In this document: positions 59,809-63,045 of the stretch, one piece after another
Numbering within the stretch: the stretch's first letter is position 1
How the letters are laid out: each line of letters begins with the position of its first letter
Virus record (IMG/VR): IMGVR_UViG_3300049215_000772
Span: 64,001 to 128,000 of that record
From: a virus
Taxonomy: Duplodnaviria; Heunggongvirae; Uroviricota; Caudoviricetes
Reading direction: 5' to 3' (one strand)
Length of the DNA: 64,000 bases
Translations under genes and position numbers: made by a program
The notes under the pieces: model-generated
Databases searched by the model: none
Seen by the model: only the letters and a program-made list of their open reading frames with translations
Told to the model about the DNA's origin: nothing

Positions 59809-60185
59809 TGGGCGCAGTCAACCCGGATATGGACAATGGCTTCCGCCCCAGCAGGGGACAGAAGGTGCGTGTGGTGGGCCGCTGCCATCCACGAATCTAC
59901 AACAAAGTGGTGCGTGTTTCTGATGTTGACGACGAGGGCACAACCATTTACTATGACACCACGGATGGCGAAGGGGCTTACACCTGGGGCCGGTACGGTG
60001 GCCTGGAGCCAGTGGACGAATCGACACCCTGCGACGTTCTTCCGGGAATCAGAAAAAAAGTCGAAGTGGGCTTTACAAGTGAGGAAAACCGGAGTAGTAT
60101 AACCTCACCAACGCAGGACGAAGCCTGCGAGACGACGAAAAGAAAAAACGAAACTGGACTTTACAAGTCGGAACAAACGGAGTAA
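59808..60185 (+). CDS. hypothetical protein (3' part overlaps the tandem promoters)
   Basis: TAATG overlap; SH3-like N-terminal half. Confidence 0.55.
   Translation: MGAVNPDMDNGFRPSRGQKVRVVGRCHPRIYNKVVRVSDVDDEGTTIYYDTTDGEGAYTWGRYGGLEPVDESTPCDVLPGIRKKVEVGFTSEENRSSITSPTQDEACETTKRKNETGLYKSEQTE
60072..60100 (+). promoter_or_regulatory. early promoter P1 of the RNA cluster
   Basis: TTTACA-17 nt-TAGTAT. Confidence 0.85.
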
Positions 60186-60188
60186 TAT
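60160..60188 (+). promoter_or_regulatory. early promoter P2 of the RNA cluster
   Basis: TTTACA-17 nt-TAATAT; near-duplicate of P1. Confidence 0.85.
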
Positions 60189-60199
60189 AAGCAACATGA

Positions 60200-60394
60200 C
60201 GGAAATGGTTCAACAACCTTGCAGCGGTGGTTGTTGAATGACAGGGGTGTGTGAGGGAGGCGCTGTTACCTCCGCACTTAAAGTGAACCTGTAAAATGGT
60301 TCCGCCCTTAATCGAACAAGCCAGCCAAATGCACGGAGCGGACTACATTACCTGCAACCAATGAACGTCTCTCCACCAAGTTGTTGGTTGGCTT
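60200..60394 (+). ncRNA. structured leader / unassigned RNA
   Basis: helices 60209-18/60229-38, 60241-45/60288-92, 60318-28/60384-94. Confidence 0.45.
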
Positions 60395-60397
60395 CCT

Positions 60398-60469
60398 GCG
60401 GGGGTAGCTCAGAGAAAGAGCATCGGCTGAATAAGCCGAGGGTCGGAGGTTCAAGTCCTTCCCTCCGCA
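60398..60469 (+). tRNA. tRNA with anticodon AAT (Ile?), G at position 33
   Basis: full cloverleaf; anticodon loop TG-AAT-AA; T loop TTCAAGT; no encoded CCA. Confidence 0.8.
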
Positions 60470-60473
60470 CTAT

Positions 60474-60568
60474 GGGCGGGTAGTATAATTGGGATACTGC
60501 GGCGAAAGTTGCAGTAGATTACGCTGGGGTTAAACTCGGAGATGGTGGTTCGAGTCCATCCCCGCCCA
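60474..60568 (+). ncRNA. tRNA-like RNA without a canonical anticodon loop
   Basis: perfect acceptor GGGCGGG/CCCGCCC, D arm GTAT/ATAC, T loop TTCGAGT; GAAA-tetraloop arm plus a 6-nt-loop arm in between. Confidence 0.75.
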
Positions 60569-60570
60569 CT

Positions 60571-60646
60571 TGTTCGGCCAAATGCCAGGTAGGATTACAT
60601 CAAGGTGTTTTGAAAGCGATCTTACCACCTATTTGTTGGTCGAACA
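60571..60646 (+). ncRNA. unassigned stem-loop RNA
   Basis: TGTTCGGCCAA/TTGGTCGAACA enclosing GGTAGGAT/ATCTTACC. Confidence 0.45.
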
Positions 60647-60671
60647 TCTTTCACAATCGTATTCGTGCCGG

Positions 60672-60770
60672 CGCAGTTGAGTAACATCGCTGCCTGGACG
60701 AATCCTGGGGACACCGGGTCAGGCCGGAAGGAGCAGCCCACTCCCCTGCGTTCAACACTTTTCAACTGCG
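60672..60770 (+). ncRNA. ffs: small SRP (4.5S) RNA homologue
   Basis: ACACC-GGGT-CAGG-CC-GGAA-GG-AGCA-GCCC helix-8 signature; GGGGA/TCCCC; 10-bp closing CGCAGTTGAG/TTCAACTGCG; 99 nt. Confidence 0.75.
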
Positions 60771-60783
60771 AGGACATACGGAA

Positions 60784-61260
60784 ATGGCAACGTCCATCAC
60801 GCTTGCGAAGGCTTTGAAGCTGAAGAACCGCCTGGCCGGTCGTCTCACTCACGTCCAGACTCTCGCCCAACAGAACAACACTGTGCTGGCCGAGCAGCAG
60901 GGCCAGATCGACGTGCTGGCCTTGGTGAAGGAGCGTGACGAGATCATGGACCAGTTGGTGGCGCTGAAGGCTGCCATCATGCGGGCCAACAGCCCGATCC
61001 AGGAAGCCATCTTGCGGAAGGGCGAATTGTCCAGCCGCATCGAATGGATCAAGACCATCAACACGACCGATGGGAAGTTGCGACATGGCTACCAGAACAC
61101 CGAACTGGAGTACGTCGCTGCCCTGAAGAAGAAGGACGTGGAACTCCAGATGAGGGCGATGGAGAAGGAAATCGACGCTCTCCAGGACAAGATCGACGAG
61201 TACAACGCCACGAAGAAGATCGAGATCGACCAACGGGCGCTCGATCTGGCATCTGCGTGA
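60784..61260 (+). CDS. coiled-coil protein (DIP1984-like N-terminus)
   Basis: TLAKALKLKNRLAGRL; GAGG RBS. Confidence 0.75.
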   Translation: MATSITLAKALKLKNRLAGRLTHVQTLAQQNNTVLAEQQGQIDVLALVKERDEIMDQLVALKAAIMRANSPIQEAILRKGELSSRIEWIKTINTTDGKLRHGYQNTELEYVAALKKKDVELQMRAMEKEIDALQDKIDEYNATKKIEIDQRALDLASA

Positions 61261-61440
61261 CGCTGGGAGGCTGGGATGGCACCACAAGGCCACCAGCGTC
61301 CCAACCGCTGGTGTGACACTTAGCATCGCCGTACCAGCGGTCGTGCTGGGCAGGCACGTTAAACTGCCCCGAAAAACCACGGGTGGTGGAGGTTGATGTG
61401 TGGGGGAACGCTGGCCGGGTTCGATTCCCGGCCAGACAAG
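61261..61440 (+). ncRNA. unassigned structured RNA ending in an extended T-loop hairpin
   Basis: CTGGCCGGG-TTCGATT-CCCGGCCAG (61411-61435); ACCGCTGGT/ACCAGCGGT. Confidence 0.45.
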
Positions 61441-61595
61441 ATATGGGGGCAACCCCTATCTTAACCTCTATGGTTACACGAACCGATCAAGGGCAAGCCT
61501 TACATTGCTGAAATTTGATCGCTTCAAAGTGCAAACCTCAAGCATCAAGATTTTTCTCCCCTATACGTTGGCTGAAGCCATCCGTGGCTATTTAC

Positions 61596-61668
61596 AGCGG
61601 TGAGGACAAATGGTTAAGTCGCCAGCCTCATAAACTGGAGGAGTGCGGTTCGATTCCCACCACCGCAA
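61596..61668 (+). tRNA. tRNA(CAT), degenerate (Met or Ile2)
   Basis: CT-CAT-AA loop; 1:72 mismatch, A8, bulged T stem. Confidence 0.7.
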
Positions 61669-61670
61669 CT

Positions 61671-61870
61671 GTCTGACGGGGCGCAAGCACCGGCCCCAAT
61701 TGTTACCACGGCCAGGGTGTCGCCGAGAGGCACGGCCAGTCTGCCTCCCCTATGGAGGACTTGATGGAGAAATCCACTTGCTCGGTCCCTCCCTCAAGGT
61801 CACTTGATGAACCGAAAGGTTTGACCTGGCTCAACTAACCTAAAGCGCAGGTTGGTTGCCCCCGTCAGAC
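61671..61870 (+). ncRNA. unassigned 200-nt multibranch RNA
   Basis: 11-bp closing GTCTGACGGGG/CCCCGTCAGAC; GAGA and two GAAA tetraloop hairpins; CAACTAACCT/AGGTTGGTTG. Confidence 0.65.
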
Positions 61871-61904
61871 TTCTTCGTAACATCCCTTGCGGAGAAGCAA
61901 CAAC

Positions 61905-62483
61905 ATGAAAGATCAAGGATTGGTGTCGGTTCGGGTCGGCGCTGCAAACATCATCGGTCCTGTTGCTGTGCTGATGGAAAATGAGGCCCATTTCCTGGGC
62001 GCTCACCTTGGAGATGGCAACAGGCTGATCCTGGAGATGTTTCCCAAGACCCTCATTCGGACTGAGATAAGCTGGCAACGTGGCGGAATCGCCGCTCAAC
62101 AGTTGCTCGCCAAGGTCGAAAATCTGAACCCGGAACGATTTGCTGTTCCTGTTCAGGTGCGTGAAACGCCGGAAGAAGCCAAGGTCGGTTCGCATATGCC
62201 CGGAGCCGGTCGAGGGGCAGTCCCGACCAGGAGCTATGGCAGTGAACGTAGGACCACCATCGTTTCGGACGGGCAGGTGATCGCTGAGAGCGAGGGCGGC
62301 TATCCCGAATACCACGCACCCACCAGCTACCCAGGGTACTACGGAGGGGCGTACAAGGGCTACGGCCAGTCCGTTCTCGAAGATGTTCGCAATCTGGCCG
62401 GCGTGACAAAGAAAAAGCTGGCGGAAGTCAAAGGCAAGGAAGGGATTGAGGAGAAAAAACCCGATTCGGAAAAAAATTCGTGA
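61905..62483 (+). CDS. hypothetical protein
   Basis: GGAG RBS before ATG 61905. Confidence 0.7.
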   Translation: MKDQGLVSVRVGAANIIGPVAVLMENEAHFLGAHLGDGNRLILEMFPKTLIRTEISWQRGGIAAQQLLAKVENLNPERFAVPVQVRETPEEAKVGSHMPGAGRGAVPTRSYGSERRTTIVSDGQVIAESEGGYPEYHAPTSYPGYYGGAYKGYGQSVLEDVRNLAGVTKKKLAEVKGKEGIEEKKPDSEKNS

Positions 62484-62580
62484 GATTGCGAACTTTTTTC
62501 CAAGTCGGGTGTCTATAATACAGAGTGCGAGCATCACCGTTCCTGCGGTAACGCAGGCAAAGTCCTTCTCGCACCAATGG

Positions 62581-62654
62581 ACCGGGGTGGAGCAGTCTGG
62601 TAGCTCGGAAGGCTCATAACCTTCAGGCCGTAGGTTCAAATCCTACCCCCGGCA
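62581..62654 (+). tRNA. tRNA-Met(CAT), initiator-like
   Basis: 1:72 mismatch, A11-U24, D loop AGTCTGGTA, T loop TTCAAAT; only two G-C pairs at the anticodon stem base. Confidence 0.9.
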
Positions 62655-62657
62655 CTT

Positions 62658-62728
62658 TGCGGTTTAGAGGAGTGGTCCCTTGCCAGGCTCATAACCTGGA
62701 GACGCTGGTTCAAATCCAGCAGCCGCAA
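62658..62728 (+). tRNA. tRNA(CAT), elongator Met or Ile2
   Basis: full cloverleaf, CCAGG/CCTGG anticodon stem. Confidence 0.9.
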
Positions 62729-62730
62729 CT

Positions 62731-63000
62731 AAGGTGACTCGTTGTCGCCTGCTTTACGAAAGACACGCCCTGCGGGGCACAAGTGGAGCTAGTACAATGT
62801 CTTGTTTCGCACGGACTCAGTGGCATAACGAACGTGGGCAAAATCAGCCCCGTCCGACGCCGTGCGCCGGTAAGCCTGTACAGCCAAATACCATTTGCAC
62901 CGTCGAAGATAAAGCAGCCATCGAGTCCTAAACCGCCACAAGCTGGCCGGTGAGGGACGAAAAATCCTGAGCCGGTAAGCTGAGATAACCGTAAATCACA
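62731..63000 (+). ncRNA. unassigned roughly 270-nt RNA
   Basis: no credible ORF; hairpins; CCGGTAAGC twice; ends at a terminator. Confidence 0.4.
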
Positions 63001-63002
63001 GC

Positions 63003-63045
63003 AACCCCTGCTCAGGAGAGAAGTCTCCAGTGCAGGGGTTTTTTG
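63003..63045 (+). terminator. rho-independent terminator
   Basis: AACCCCTGC...GCAGGGGTT-TTTTG with inner GGAGA/TCTCC. Confidence 0.8.

What the first reader, a model, noticed from the sequence alone, without database searches (positions are those of the whole stretch)
60072..63045. rrn-style tandem promoters driving a roughly 3-kb polycistron of tRNAs and unassigned RNAs
Seen: duplicated P1/P2 promoters 88 nt apart, then a structured leader, tRNA(AAT), a tRNA-like RNA, a stem-loop RNA, SRP RNA, one CDS, a T-loop RNA, tRNA(CAT), a 200-nt RNA, one CDS, two tRNA(CAT), a 270-nt RNA and a terminator. Inference: tRNAs act as RNase P/Z punctuation to release a panel of phage ncRNAs that mimic host housekeeping RNAs.
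Basis: partly seen in the sequence, partly recalled or inferred. Interest (0 to 1): 0.72.

Follow-up and report, generated by a model that had tools for sequence, protein, structure and literature searches.

The report
Jumbo-phage cluster of tRNA-flanked non-coding RNAs
At the head of its tRNA array, a giant phage keeps a conserved cluster of small folded RNAs, namely two Y RNAs, a miniature SRP-like RNA, tRNA look-alikes that probably cannot read codons and several uncatalogued RNAs; one of these accumulates in moss RNA samples as a discrete, apparently circular 217-base molecule.

Summary
The cluster is real. It is conserved, with modules gained, lost or reordered, in about a dozen related jumbo-phage loci.

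- P1/P2 are two copies of a phage-wide sigma70-type promoter (8 in this contig), not rrn promoters.
- A third conserved promoter (ECF-like, about 62490) lies inside the stretch and probably starts a second unit.
- The end of the 'leader' and the 'stem-loop RNA' are two short Y RNAs. They covary and co-occur with phage Ro60 in relatives.
- 'tRNA(AAT)' is probably not a decoder; its orthologues have a sealed arm instead of an anticodon loop.
- The SRP-like RNA has a helix 8 identical to that of a Gemmataceae SRP RNA.
- The 'T-loop RNA' is a 217-nt heptad-repeat RNA tied to the DIP1984/DUF6847 gene. In four moss metatranscriptome runs it assembles as a head-to-tail joined contig (61373-61589): a true circle or an RT artefact.
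- The 200-nt and 270-nt RNAs are conserved but unassigned.

Gaps of 2-6 nt to tRNA bodies fit RNase P/Z release, but cleavage was not shown. 'Housekeeping mimicry' fits only the SRP-like and tRNA-like RNAs. This scan already noted the DIP1984-RNA pair and anticodon-less tRNAs on other DNA.

The parts
60055..60100 (+). P1: sigma70-type phage promoter with A-tract (-35 at 60072, -10 ends at 60100)
   Evidence: motif occurs 8 times in G000 against 0.13 in shuffles; 2-3 tandem copies in relatives
60143..60188 (+). P2: second copy of the same promoter, 88 nt downstream
60196..60319 (+). Structured leader, lineage-variable (shared with L001/L016; different or absent in others)
   Evidence: z about -1.9
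60320..60392 (+). Short Y RNA copy A (Ro60-binding stem only, YrlB/Yrn2-like)
   Evidence: alignment A3 and covariation; CM R1 64 bits
60398..60469 (+). tRNA-like RNA 1, the 'tRNA(AAT)'; G instead of U33; probably non-decoding
   Evidence: 8 of 10 orthologues carry a long sealed arm in place of the anticodon loop
60474..60568 (+). tRNA-like RNA 2: anticodon arm closed by a GAAA tetraloop, long variable arm
   Evidence: (z -3.2); homologues in L001, L009, L011, L012, L015
60571..60646 (+). Short Y RNA copy B
60666..60748 (+). Mini SRP-like RNA: 5' hairpin plus helix 8 with a 2-bp apical stem
   Evidence: second phage copy at L014:2773-2862 with compensatory helices
60784..61260 (+). DUF6847 / DIP1984-fold protein, 158 aa
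   Evidence: PF20935 E 1.4e-6, 28.8 bits over cut-off 27; NF038048 below cut-off; Foldseek best hit 3KDQ, TM 0.63, E 1.5e-3
61261..61372 (+). Hairpins and a possible H-type pseudoknot between the stop codon and the 217-nt RNA; only in the closest relatives
   Evidence: pseudoknot read by eye from L009, L011, L012
61373..61589 (+). 217-nt DIP1984-associated heptad-repeat RNA; assembles head-to-tail joined in RNA data
61596..61668 (+). tRNA(CAT), initiator-like (A1.A72 mismatch, A11:U24), somewhat degenerate (A8, C31.A39)
   Evidence: Rfam 47.9 bits; features read from the alignment
61671..61870 (+). 200-nt multibranch RNA of an uncatalogued family; conserved closing stem and 5'/3' motifs, variable interior (about 130-200 nt)
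61905..62483 (+). 192-aa hypothetical CDS; variable insertion (similar ORF in L011, absent in L009 and L012)
   Evidence: no Pfam hit
62470..62520 (+). P3: internal promoter, A-tract then GAACTT-16-TCTA (ECF-like), overlapping TATAAT
   Evidence: phage ECF sigma gene at window 51177-51839
62525..62574 (+). Leader hairpin of the P3 unit
   Evidence: z -4.0
62581..62654 (+). tRNA(CAT), initiator-like (A1.C72, A11:U24)
62658..62728 (+). tRNA(CAT), initiator-like (U1:A72, A11:U24)
62733..63002 (+). 270-nt RNA of an uncatalogued family (about 210-290 nt in relatives)
   Evidence: found independently by nhmmer in L279 (E 1e-18) and L287
63003..63046 (+). Intrinsic terminator
   Evidence: I9; hairpin plus T-run at the same place in L001, L009, L011 and L277

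Best explanation
This is a cassette-like cluster of small RNP and tRNA-like RNA genes at the head of a jumbo-phage tRNA array, expressed as two overlapping units.

Transcription (inferred): a doubled strong sigma70-type promoter drives the upstream unit, which may read through. An ECF-type promoter, possibly read by the phage's own ECF sigma factor, drives leader, two initiator tRNAs and the 270-nt RNA up to the terminator.

Processing (inferred from spacing): host tRNA-processing enzymes cut at the tRNA and tRNA-like bodies (RNase P at 5' ends, RNase Z or exonucleases at 3' ends). Exonucleases trim to the closing stems and release the neighbours.

Products:
- Two short Y RNAs that bind a phage Ro60 (structure and co-occurrence shown; binding inferred).
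- A mini SRP-like RNA that would bind host Ffh (motif shown; function inferred).
- Non-decoding tRNA-shaped RNAs that act both as cleavage tags and as RNAs under their own selection.
- A stable 217-nt RNA with paired or ligated ends that presents 7-nt repeats to the oligomeric DUF6847 protein encoded just upstream (accumulation and ends shown; binding inferred).
- Two further RNAs of unknown function.

The likely theme is RNA quality control and translation support during infection, not a uniform set of housekeeping mimics.
For: Synteny (ThiF/ubiquitin-like genes, tandem promoters, RNA cluster, DUF6847, P3, CAT tRNAs, 270-nt RNA, terminator) in whole or in part in L001, L009, L011, L012, L014-L016, L276, L277, L279, L287.

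Modules are gained, lost or reordered between tRNA bodies: the SRP-like RNA lies after the Y RNA here but before it in L014.

Gaps between module and tRNA body are 5, 4, 2, 6, 2, 6, 3 and 4 nt. No tRNA body here encodes CCA.

Y RNAs:
- 95% of cells paired, 10 of 17 pairs with double changes; 0 of 500 shuffles reach the covariation score; slid controls low.
- The motifs match the YrlA motifs GNCGAAN0-1G (here with one G>A change) and YUAY of PMC4201824.
- The model also finds a copy with the canonical CGAAUG and long copies with a T-acceptor-D permuted tRNA domain.
- G001, G002 and G005 carry these RNAs and a Ro60-like gene; the complete G003 and G004 have neither. G002 and G005 were found through the RNA motif alone.

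217-nt RNA:
- 88.7% paired, 14 of 26 pairs with double changes, 0 of 500 shuffles.
- Periodicity z 8 at lag 7 and z 10 at lag 14.
- 16 of 20 weak model hits lie just behind distant DUF6847 genes on the same strand.
- Joint 61589 to 61373 in 4 of 4 RNA runs, contig depth 130-292 against 2-11 for neighbouring contigs.

Low-depth contigs bridge leader, Y-A and tRNA-like 1, and bridge Y-B into the SRP-like RNA. One fragment ends one base past the discriminator of tRNA-like 1.

The protein's self-association is supported by a model: ipSAE 0.75, best control 0.34, contact agreement at least 94%, pLDDT at least 88; the mark was reached by 20 of 30 solved homodimers and 1 of 23 monomers. It may pass by likeness to the solved DIP1984 crystal.
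Against: - No cleavage site, transcription start or strand was observed; only assembled contigs were available.
- Contigs at depth 2-11 are at the level of the upstream CDS (depth 2) and could be DNA.
- Contig depth is a poor measure of expression, and the runs (2 study codes) may be one campaign.
- The 217-nt RNA lacks a flanking tRNA at its 5' end here, and at both ends in most relatives, so it does not need punctuation.
- No Y RNA, SRP or other spacer reaches an Rfam gathering score. The Y model does not score the YrlA-like RNAs of two actinophages.
- No Ro60 was found in G000, which is only 27% complete.
- The SRP-like RNA was seen in only two phages, and its minimum-energy fold is unremarkable (z -0.2).
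- Covariation counts are inflated by relatedness and by structures derived from the same sequences.
Confidence: 0.6

Rival explanations
1. One reading: one rrn-like 3-kb polycistron whose tRNAs punctuate a panel of mimics of host housekeeping RNAs (SRP, 6S, RNase P, tmRNA-like) that titrate or redirect host factors.
For: SRP helix 8 identical over 27 nt to a Gemmataceae SRP RNA. No clear terminator between P2 and 63003. Short spacers. The phage has a tmRNA elsewhere and boxA-like sites further down the array.
Against: Internal conserved P3. The promoter is phage-general. No 6S, RNase P or tmRNA match for the unassigned RNAs at E up to 10. Y RNAs and the 217-nt RNA track phage-coded proteins.
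Confidence: 0.15
2. Decoy array: the tRNA-shaped, Y-like and SRP-like RNAs are sacrificial sponges for host anti-phage RNases and tRNA-targeting toxins. Sealed anticodon arms make them bind such enzymes without being cut.
For: Anticodon loops are repeatedly replaced by GNRA-capped stems while acceptor, D and T arms are kept. The cluster sits first behind the strongest tandem promoters. There are multiple divergent copies.
Against: No defence system was identified. A cognate Ro60 gene and a cognate DUF6847 gene point to dedicated particles. The structured D-loop insertions in relatives are more elaborate than a decoy needs. This rival is not exclusive of the best explanation.
Confidence: 0.2
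3. The head-to-tail joint of the 217-nt RNA is a library artefact: reverse transcriptase jumps between the paired ends of a stable linear RNA. The RNA is real and abundant but not circular.
For: The ends are juxtaposed by an 11-bp closing helix. Template switching makes chimeric reads in 1-7% of reads (PMC5888575). No RtcB in G000 or G001, and no RNA ligase in the partial G000.
Against: The same joint (within 1 nt) in 4 of 4 runs. No such joint for any other element. ATP-dependent RNA ligase genes in G001, G002, G003 and G005.
Confidence: 0.4
4. A decaying tRNA array: pseudo-tRNAs and incidental spacer hairpins without function.
For: Degenerate features in the tRNA at 61596. Variable content between phages. 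The 200- and 270-nt RNAs were not covered in four RNA runs.
Against: Compensatory changes, motif conservation across phages whose DUF6847 proteins are 53-77% identical, and an accumulated discrete RNA.
Confidence: 0.03

Closest known systems
Bacterial and phage Y RNAs YrlA/YrlB/Yrn2 with Ro60 (Rsr) (Chen et al. 2014, PMC4201824; Rfam RF02553)
   Same: Closing stem with a GNC(G/A)AAUG 5' strand, two internal loops with YUAY, long-hairpin form like YrlB/Yrn2, several copies per genome, Ro60 gene in the same phages, release from a precursor.
   Different: The two copies here have CAAAUG for CGAAUG and no tRNA-like domain, score below Rfam cut-offs, and lie about 35 kb from the Ro60 gene in G001 rather than within 4 kb.
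Bacterial small SRP RNA (4.5S; Rfam RF00169), short-helix-8 variant of Gemmataceae, Omnitrophota and Micrarchaeota
   Same: Symmetric loop CAGG/AGCA, GGAA tetraloop and an asymmetric loop; 27 nt identical to a Gemmataceae SRP RNA that passes the gathering score.
   Different: Phage-encoded, about 85-95 nt, helix 8 preceded by a separate 5' hairpin instead of one long rod; no Ffh gene found in five phage records; no paper on a phage-encoded SRP RNA turned up in my searches.
Phage tRNA arrays with embedded tmRNA, Y RNA and Ro60 (e.g. Gordonia phage Boopy), and GOLLD/ROOL RNAs among phage tRNAs (PMC12286853 turned up; the link to tRNA arrays is from my own knowledge)
   Same: Non-coding RNAs embedded between CCA-less tRNA genes in a large phage.
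   Different: Many more RNA classes in one block; three match no Rfam family; non-decoding tRNA bodies serve as spacers.
b7a-tRNA and other tRNA mimics (Burroughs and Aravind 2016, as cited in bioRxiv 10.1101/312249); mascRNA-type processing tags (own knowledge)
   Same: tRNA-shaped RNA near RNA-repair-type genes; the tRNA fold is usable as an RNase P/Z signal.
   Different: Here the anticodon loop is replaced by a GNRA-capped or extended arm, and relatives add structured D-loop insertions. I could not read the b7a-tRNA description first-hand.
rRNA operon (rrn) P1/P2 promoters
   Same: Tandem sigma70 promoters with A-tracts ahead of stable-RNA genes; boxA-like sites further down the array.
   Different: A/T-rich discriminators, no boxA in this leader, and the same promoter drives protein genes elsewhere in the phage.
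DIP1984 family (NF038048, PF20935, PDB 3KDQ)
   Same: Fold (TM 0.63) and Pfam membership.
   Different: No function or RNA partner is published that I could find.

Membership tests
rrn-type P1/P2 promoters | Tandem sigma70 promoters with UP elements | tested here: met
rrn-type P1/P2 promoters | G+C-rich discriminator after the -10 element | tested here: not met
   AACCTCA and AAGCAAC follow the -10 boxes
rrn-type P1/P2 promoters | boxA antiterminator in the leader | tested here: not met
   none in 60100-63045; boxA-like sites only at G000 128010, 131011 and window 35822
rrn-type P1/P2 promoters | Dedicated to stable-RNA operons | tested here: not met
   six further single copies elsewhere in the contig, several ahead of protein genes
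Single 3-kb polycistron | No internal promoter; one transcript across the region | tested here: inconclusive
   conserved P3 inside; read-through not excluded; no contig spans the region
tRNA punctuation (RNase P/Z release) | Modules abut tRNA bodies that lack encoded CCA | tested here: met
   gaps of 2-6 nt for 8 junctions; not true for the SRP-like RNA or the 5' end of the 217-nt RNA
tRNA punctuation (RNase P/Z release) | Processed ends at tRNA boundaries in vivo or in vitro | tested here: inconclusive
   one fragment ends at 60470; the 217-nt RNA ends 6 nt before the tRNA at 61596; contigs only
Y RNA (YrlB/Yrn2-type short form) | 5'/3' closing helix with the GNCGAAN0-1G motif | tested here: inconclusive
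   helix covaries; motif is GNCAAAUG here, canonical CGAAUG in family member L123:709-775
Y RNA (YrlB/Yrn2-type short form) | Ro60/TROVE gene in the same genome | tested here: inconclusive
   present in G001, G002, G005; not in the 27%-complete G000
Y RNA (YrlB/Yrn2-type short form) | Binds Ro60 | not testable with these tools
   needs a binding assay
YrlA (RF02553) | Permuted tRNA-like effector domain (T, closed acceptor, D) | tested here: not met
   absent from both window copies; present in long family members L123:5162-5303 and L191:1885-2027, which do not reach Rfam YrlA either
SRP RNA (RF00169/RF01854/RF01857) | Helix 8 with symmetric loop, asymmetric loop and GNRA tetraloop | tested here: met
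   the 2-bp apical stem is natural in Gemmataceae SRP, 48.2 bits over gathering 40
SRP RNA (RF00169/RF01854/RF01857) | Whole-molecule match above the Rfam gathering score | tested here: not met
   21.7 bits
SRP RNA (RF00169/RF01854/RF01857) | Binds Ffh and stimulates Ffh-FtsY GTPase | not testable with these tools
   no phage Ffh found; would need the host protein
Decoding tRNA-Ile(AAT) | U33 and a conserved 7-nt anticodon loop | tested here: not met
   G33; 8 of 10 orthologues have no anticodon loop
Initiator tRNA-fMet (three CAT genes) | Weak or mismatched 1:72 pair and A11:U24 | tested here: met
   read
Initiator tRNA-fMet (three CAT genes) | Three consecutive G:C pairs in the anticodon stem | tested here: not met
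   two of three at 62581 and 62658, fewer at 61596
ECF sigma promoter (P3) | GAACTT, 16-17 nt, TCTA (consensus from my own knowledge) | tested here: met
   spacing 16-17 in 9 of 9 loci; a TATAAT overlaps, so a sigma70 reading remains possible
6S RNA / RNase P RNA / tmRNA (for the 200-, 217- and 270-nt RNAs) | Match to the Rfam covariance model | tested here: not met
   no match at E up to 10; no RNase P RNA in G000 or G001
Covalently closed circular RNA (217-nt) | Head-to-tail junction in RNA, absent from DNA | tested here: met
   joint in 4 of 4 RNA runs; G000 and L008 are collinear without duplication; no DNA run of the same samples was laid
Covalently closed circular RNA (217-nt) | Exonuclease resistance, not RT template switching | not testable with these tools
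   needs RNase R or direct RNA sequencing

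The most novel reading that the evidence does not exclude
The phage carries a modular RNA toolkit that host tRNA-processing enzymes cut out of one precursor. It includes a functional virus-encoded SRP RNA that reprograms host Ffh, purpose-built anticodon-less tRNAs, and an abundant, genuinely circular DNA-encoded 217-nt RNA that threads a DUF6847 oligomer on its 7-nt repeats to form an undescribed ribonucleoprotein.
Probability: 0.3. Interest if true: 0.9.

Novelty: new variant of a known kind. Interest (0 to 1): 0.72.

Why it matters
tRNA arrays of large phages are usually annotated as tRNAs plus filler. Here the filler consists of at least six conserved RNA classes, and the standard tools miscall one non-decoding RNA as tRNA-Ile.

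If the reading holds, the locus gives testable cases of four things I could not find described: a virus-encoded SRP-like RNA; a family of anticodon-less tRNAs; an abundant and possibly circular phage RNA with mapped ends; and a first candidate ligand for the DIP1984 protein family, whose structure has been solved since 2009 without a known function.

Tried and rejected
- BLASTN against GenBank phages: the listed hits covered only the tRNA-Met genes.
- Exact SRP pattern in viral contigs: none. 270-nt pattern: only the known relative.
- ThiF-based search for more loci: mostly distant phages without the cluster.
- 217-nt model in 151 Planctomycetota genomes: only 16-25-bit hits, not followed up and treated as likely chance.
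- DUF6847 absent from the two Planctomycetota MAGs with the matching SRP. The short helix 8 is in 1 of 201 sampled genomes. The host is therefore unresolved; Gemmataceae is only a lead.
- M-box, mascRNA and YrlA Rfam hits in the window are weak and misplaced.
- 6S, RNase P and pistol/HDV-ribozyme readings of the unassigned RNAs: no Rfam support.
- tRNA-intron reading of the insertions: no bulge-helix-bulge motif seen by eye, and the GNRA-capped arms leave no anticodon to restore.
- RNAalifold on the 270-nt family gave a poor consensus (covariation term +1.06, 6 divergent sequences); its core fold is unresolved.
- The 200-nt and 270-nt RNAs had no cover in the four RNA runs, which proves nothing.
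- The high depth at 62583-62627 comes from other organisms' tRNA contigs (loose ends).
- PDB sequence search with the DUF6847 profile found nothing meaningful.
- The Burroughs and Aravind paper was not held.

Full report
Context. The window is G000:64001-128000 of a 134-kb virus record rated 27% complete. The identical DUF6847 protein is also recorded on a 673-kb contig, so this is probably a fragment of a jumbo phage. The flagged stretch is the head of a tRNA array that continues to about G000:133870. Relatives found through the DUF6847 protein lie on contigs of up to 603 kb. They keep the same order in whole or in part: ubiquitin-like/ThiF genes, tandem promoters, RNA cluster, DUF6847, a third promoter, CAT tRNAs, a 210-290-nt RNA and a terminator.

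Promoters. P1 and P2 are real, 88 nt apart and 75% identical. The motif TTTACA-17-TA(G/A)(A/T)AT occurs 8 times in G000 against 0.13 in shuffles, six of them singly. Relatives have two or three tandem copies at this locus. The discriminators are A/T-rich and there is no boxA in the leader; boxA-like sites occur further down the array. So this is a doubled general phage promoter, not an rrn promoter. GAAC.TTTT and GTCTA are invariant in 9 loci with 16-17 nt spacing. That is the ECF pattern (own knowledge), and the phage encodes an ECF sigma factor 11 kb upstream. A TATAAT overlaps it, so the sigma factor is uncertain. The region is most likely two overlapping units; read-through is not excluded.

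tRNA-shaped genes. The three CAT genes carry initiator features (weak or mismatched 1:72, A11:U24), but not the full three G:C pairs of the anticodon stem. 'tRNA(AAT)' has G33. Of ten orthologues, eight replace the anticodon loop with a long arm, mostly GNRA-capped, while the acceptor, D and T arms are kept. It is therefore probably not a decoder. The RNA at 60474-60568 has a GAAA-capped anticodon arm and a long variable arm. Relatives add further types with structured D-loop insertions.

Y RNAs. Thirteen homologues give 95% paired cells and 10 of 17 pairs with double changes. None of 500 shuffles reaches the covariation score, and slid controls are low. The conserved letters correspond to the YrlA motifs GNCGAAN0-1G and YUAY, and the shape to the long-hairpin YrlB/Yrn2 form (PMC4201824). 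The covariance model also finds a copy with canonical CGAAUG and long copies whose insert is a T-acceptor-D permuted tRNA domain, the YrlA layout. G001, G002 and G005 have these RNAs and a Ro60-like gene; the complete G003 and G004 have neither. G002 and G005 were reached by the RNA motif alone, so this was a real prediction. Limits: no Rfam cut-off is reached, the model misses actinophage YrlA, and no Ro60 is in the partial G000.

SRP-like RNA. Helix 8 has both loops and a GGAA tetraloop on a 2-bp stem. The same 27 nt occur in a Gemmataceae SRP RNA that passes the Rfam threshold, and in Omnitrophota and Micrarchaeota, so the short stem is a natural variant. A second phage copy (L014) keeps a 5' hairpin and the S-domain helix through different sequence, and sits at another place in the cluster. 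No Ffh gene was found in five phage records. Literature searches found no phage-encoded SRP RNA. It looks like SRP RNA and probably binds host Ffh, but it fails the whole-molecule family test.

The 217-nt RNA. The conserved unit runs from a CCACG stem to its partner CGTGG. It shows 88.7% paired cells and 14 of 26 pairs with double changes, with 0 of 500 shuffles as high. A segment of fixed length (65-67 nt) has 7-nt periodicity (z 8 at lag 7, z 10 at lag 14; relatedness inflates these). Sixteen of 20 weak model hits lie directly behind distant DUF6847 genes, so gene and RNA travel together. The protein has the DIP1984 fold (3KDQ, TM 0.63). A model supports self-association: score 0.75, best control 0.34, contact agreement at least 94%, pLDDT at least 88; 20 of 30 homodimers and 1 of 23 monomers reach the mark, and it may pass by likeness to the solved crystal. 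This says nothing about RNA binding.

RNA data. Moss and plant metatranscriptomes hold the locus at 99% identity or better. In all four runs laid (2 study codes, possibly one campaign), a 247-nt contig covers exactly 61373-61589 with a joint from 61589 back to 61373. Its depth is 130-292, against 2-11 for the other matching contigs. This shows a discrete RNA with defined ends at the closing stem. It is either circular or linear with RT jumping across paired ends, a known artefact (PMC5888575); I put circularity at about 60%. The 3' end lies 6 nt before a tRNA, which fits RNase P cleavage plus trimming. Related phages encode ATP-dependent RNA ligases; RtcB was found only in G003. Low-depth contigs bridge leader, Y-A and tRNA-like 1, and Y-B into the SRP-like RNA, and one fragment ends at 60470. 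These may be precursors or DNA.

200-nt and 270-nt RNAs. Both are strongly folded and conserved in position. The 200-nt family keeps a closing stem and terminal motifs around a variable interior. The 270-nt family is in at least 7 loci, one found independently at E 1e-18, but its core fold is unresolved. Neither matches Rfam, and neither was covered in the RNA runs.

Mechanism. Eight junctions between a module and a tRNA body measure 2-6 nt, no tRNA body encodes CCA, and modules are gained, lost or reordered between tRNA bodies across phages. Release by host RNase P and RNase Z or exonucleases is therefore the likeliest route, but it is inferred, not shown, and the 217-nt RNA does without flanking tRNAs in most relatives. 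The products are best read as a set of separate RNPs (Ro60-Y, Ffh-SRP-like, DUF6847-217-nt) plus non-decoding tRNAs and extra initiator tRNAs, serving RNA quality control and translation during infection (0.6). A decoy role is a compatible rival (0.2). The uniform housekeeping-mimic polycistron is less likely (0.15).

Novelty. Phage Y RNAs and ncRNAs within tRNA arrays are known. The density and variety here, the SRP-like RNA, the anticodon-less tRNAs and the joined 217-nt RNA are not in Rfam or in the papers I could search. Other agents in this scan noted the DIP1984-RNA pair (once as probably circular) and anticodon-less tRNAs on other DNA. Those notes are leads, and I tested the periodicity, linkage and joint myself. 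Verdict: new variant of a known kind, containing undescribed RNA families; interest 0.72.

Noticed in passing
G000:C1:47560-47921 (outside the window): tmRNA gene with tag GETQFAMAA.
   Followed up: partly
window 52345-56453: Prok-E2-like, JAB, ThiF/E1 and ubiquitin-like gene cluster, syntenic with the RNA cluster in all close relatives.
   Followed up: no
window 51177-51839: Phage ECF-type sigma factor (TIGR02937 over cut-off); candidate reader of P3.
   Followed up: partly
window 29940-30345: About 400 nt without a long ORF, ending in a hairpin and T-run; no Rfam hit, no homologue in five phage records, folding z only -0.6.
   Followed up: partly
G000:C1:128010 and 131011; window 35822: boxA-like TTCTTTGACAA sites; those in the tRNA array recur in relatives, which suggests use of host rrn-type antitermination further downstream.
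   Followed up: partly
window 61342-61370: Possible H-type pseudoknot just 5' of the 217-nt RNA, kept in L009, L011 and L012.
   Followed up: no
L015:2215-2445; L016:2835-3018: An extra conserved RNA of about 190-230 nt between tRNA-like 1 and the Y RNA, absent from the window.
   Followed up: no
L001:4410-4964; L281:502-936; L276:4446-4974: Further tRNA-like types with two-hairpin D-loop insertions, GNRA-capped anticodon arms and altered T loops.
   Followed up: partly
L009:5605-5668; L012:5593-5660: Small long-stem RNA ending in ACCA or ACCU between the Y RNA and tRNA-like 2.
   Followed up: no
G002:C1:36384-36715; G005:C1:58158-58489: RNase P RNA genes (over the Rfam cut-off) in two Y-RNA- and Ro60-bearing phages, each next to an RNA-ligase-family match.
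   Followed up: no
L283:9193-9507: Two longer Y-family RNAs, each directly behind a tRNA gene, with different inserts on the same stem.
   Followed up: partly
G000:C1:128352-129002 and 131828-133701: An aminoacyl-tRNA-synthetase-like ORF (PF00579 in relatives) and an IS607-like resolvase plus TnpB-like pair (judged by eye) inside the tRNA array.
   Followed up: no
L239:6585-6725; L266:5121-5261: Gemmataceae-type SRP RNA with a 1-bp-short helix 8, shared with most matching Micrarchaeota; found in 1 of 201 sampled Planctomycetota.
   Followed up: partly
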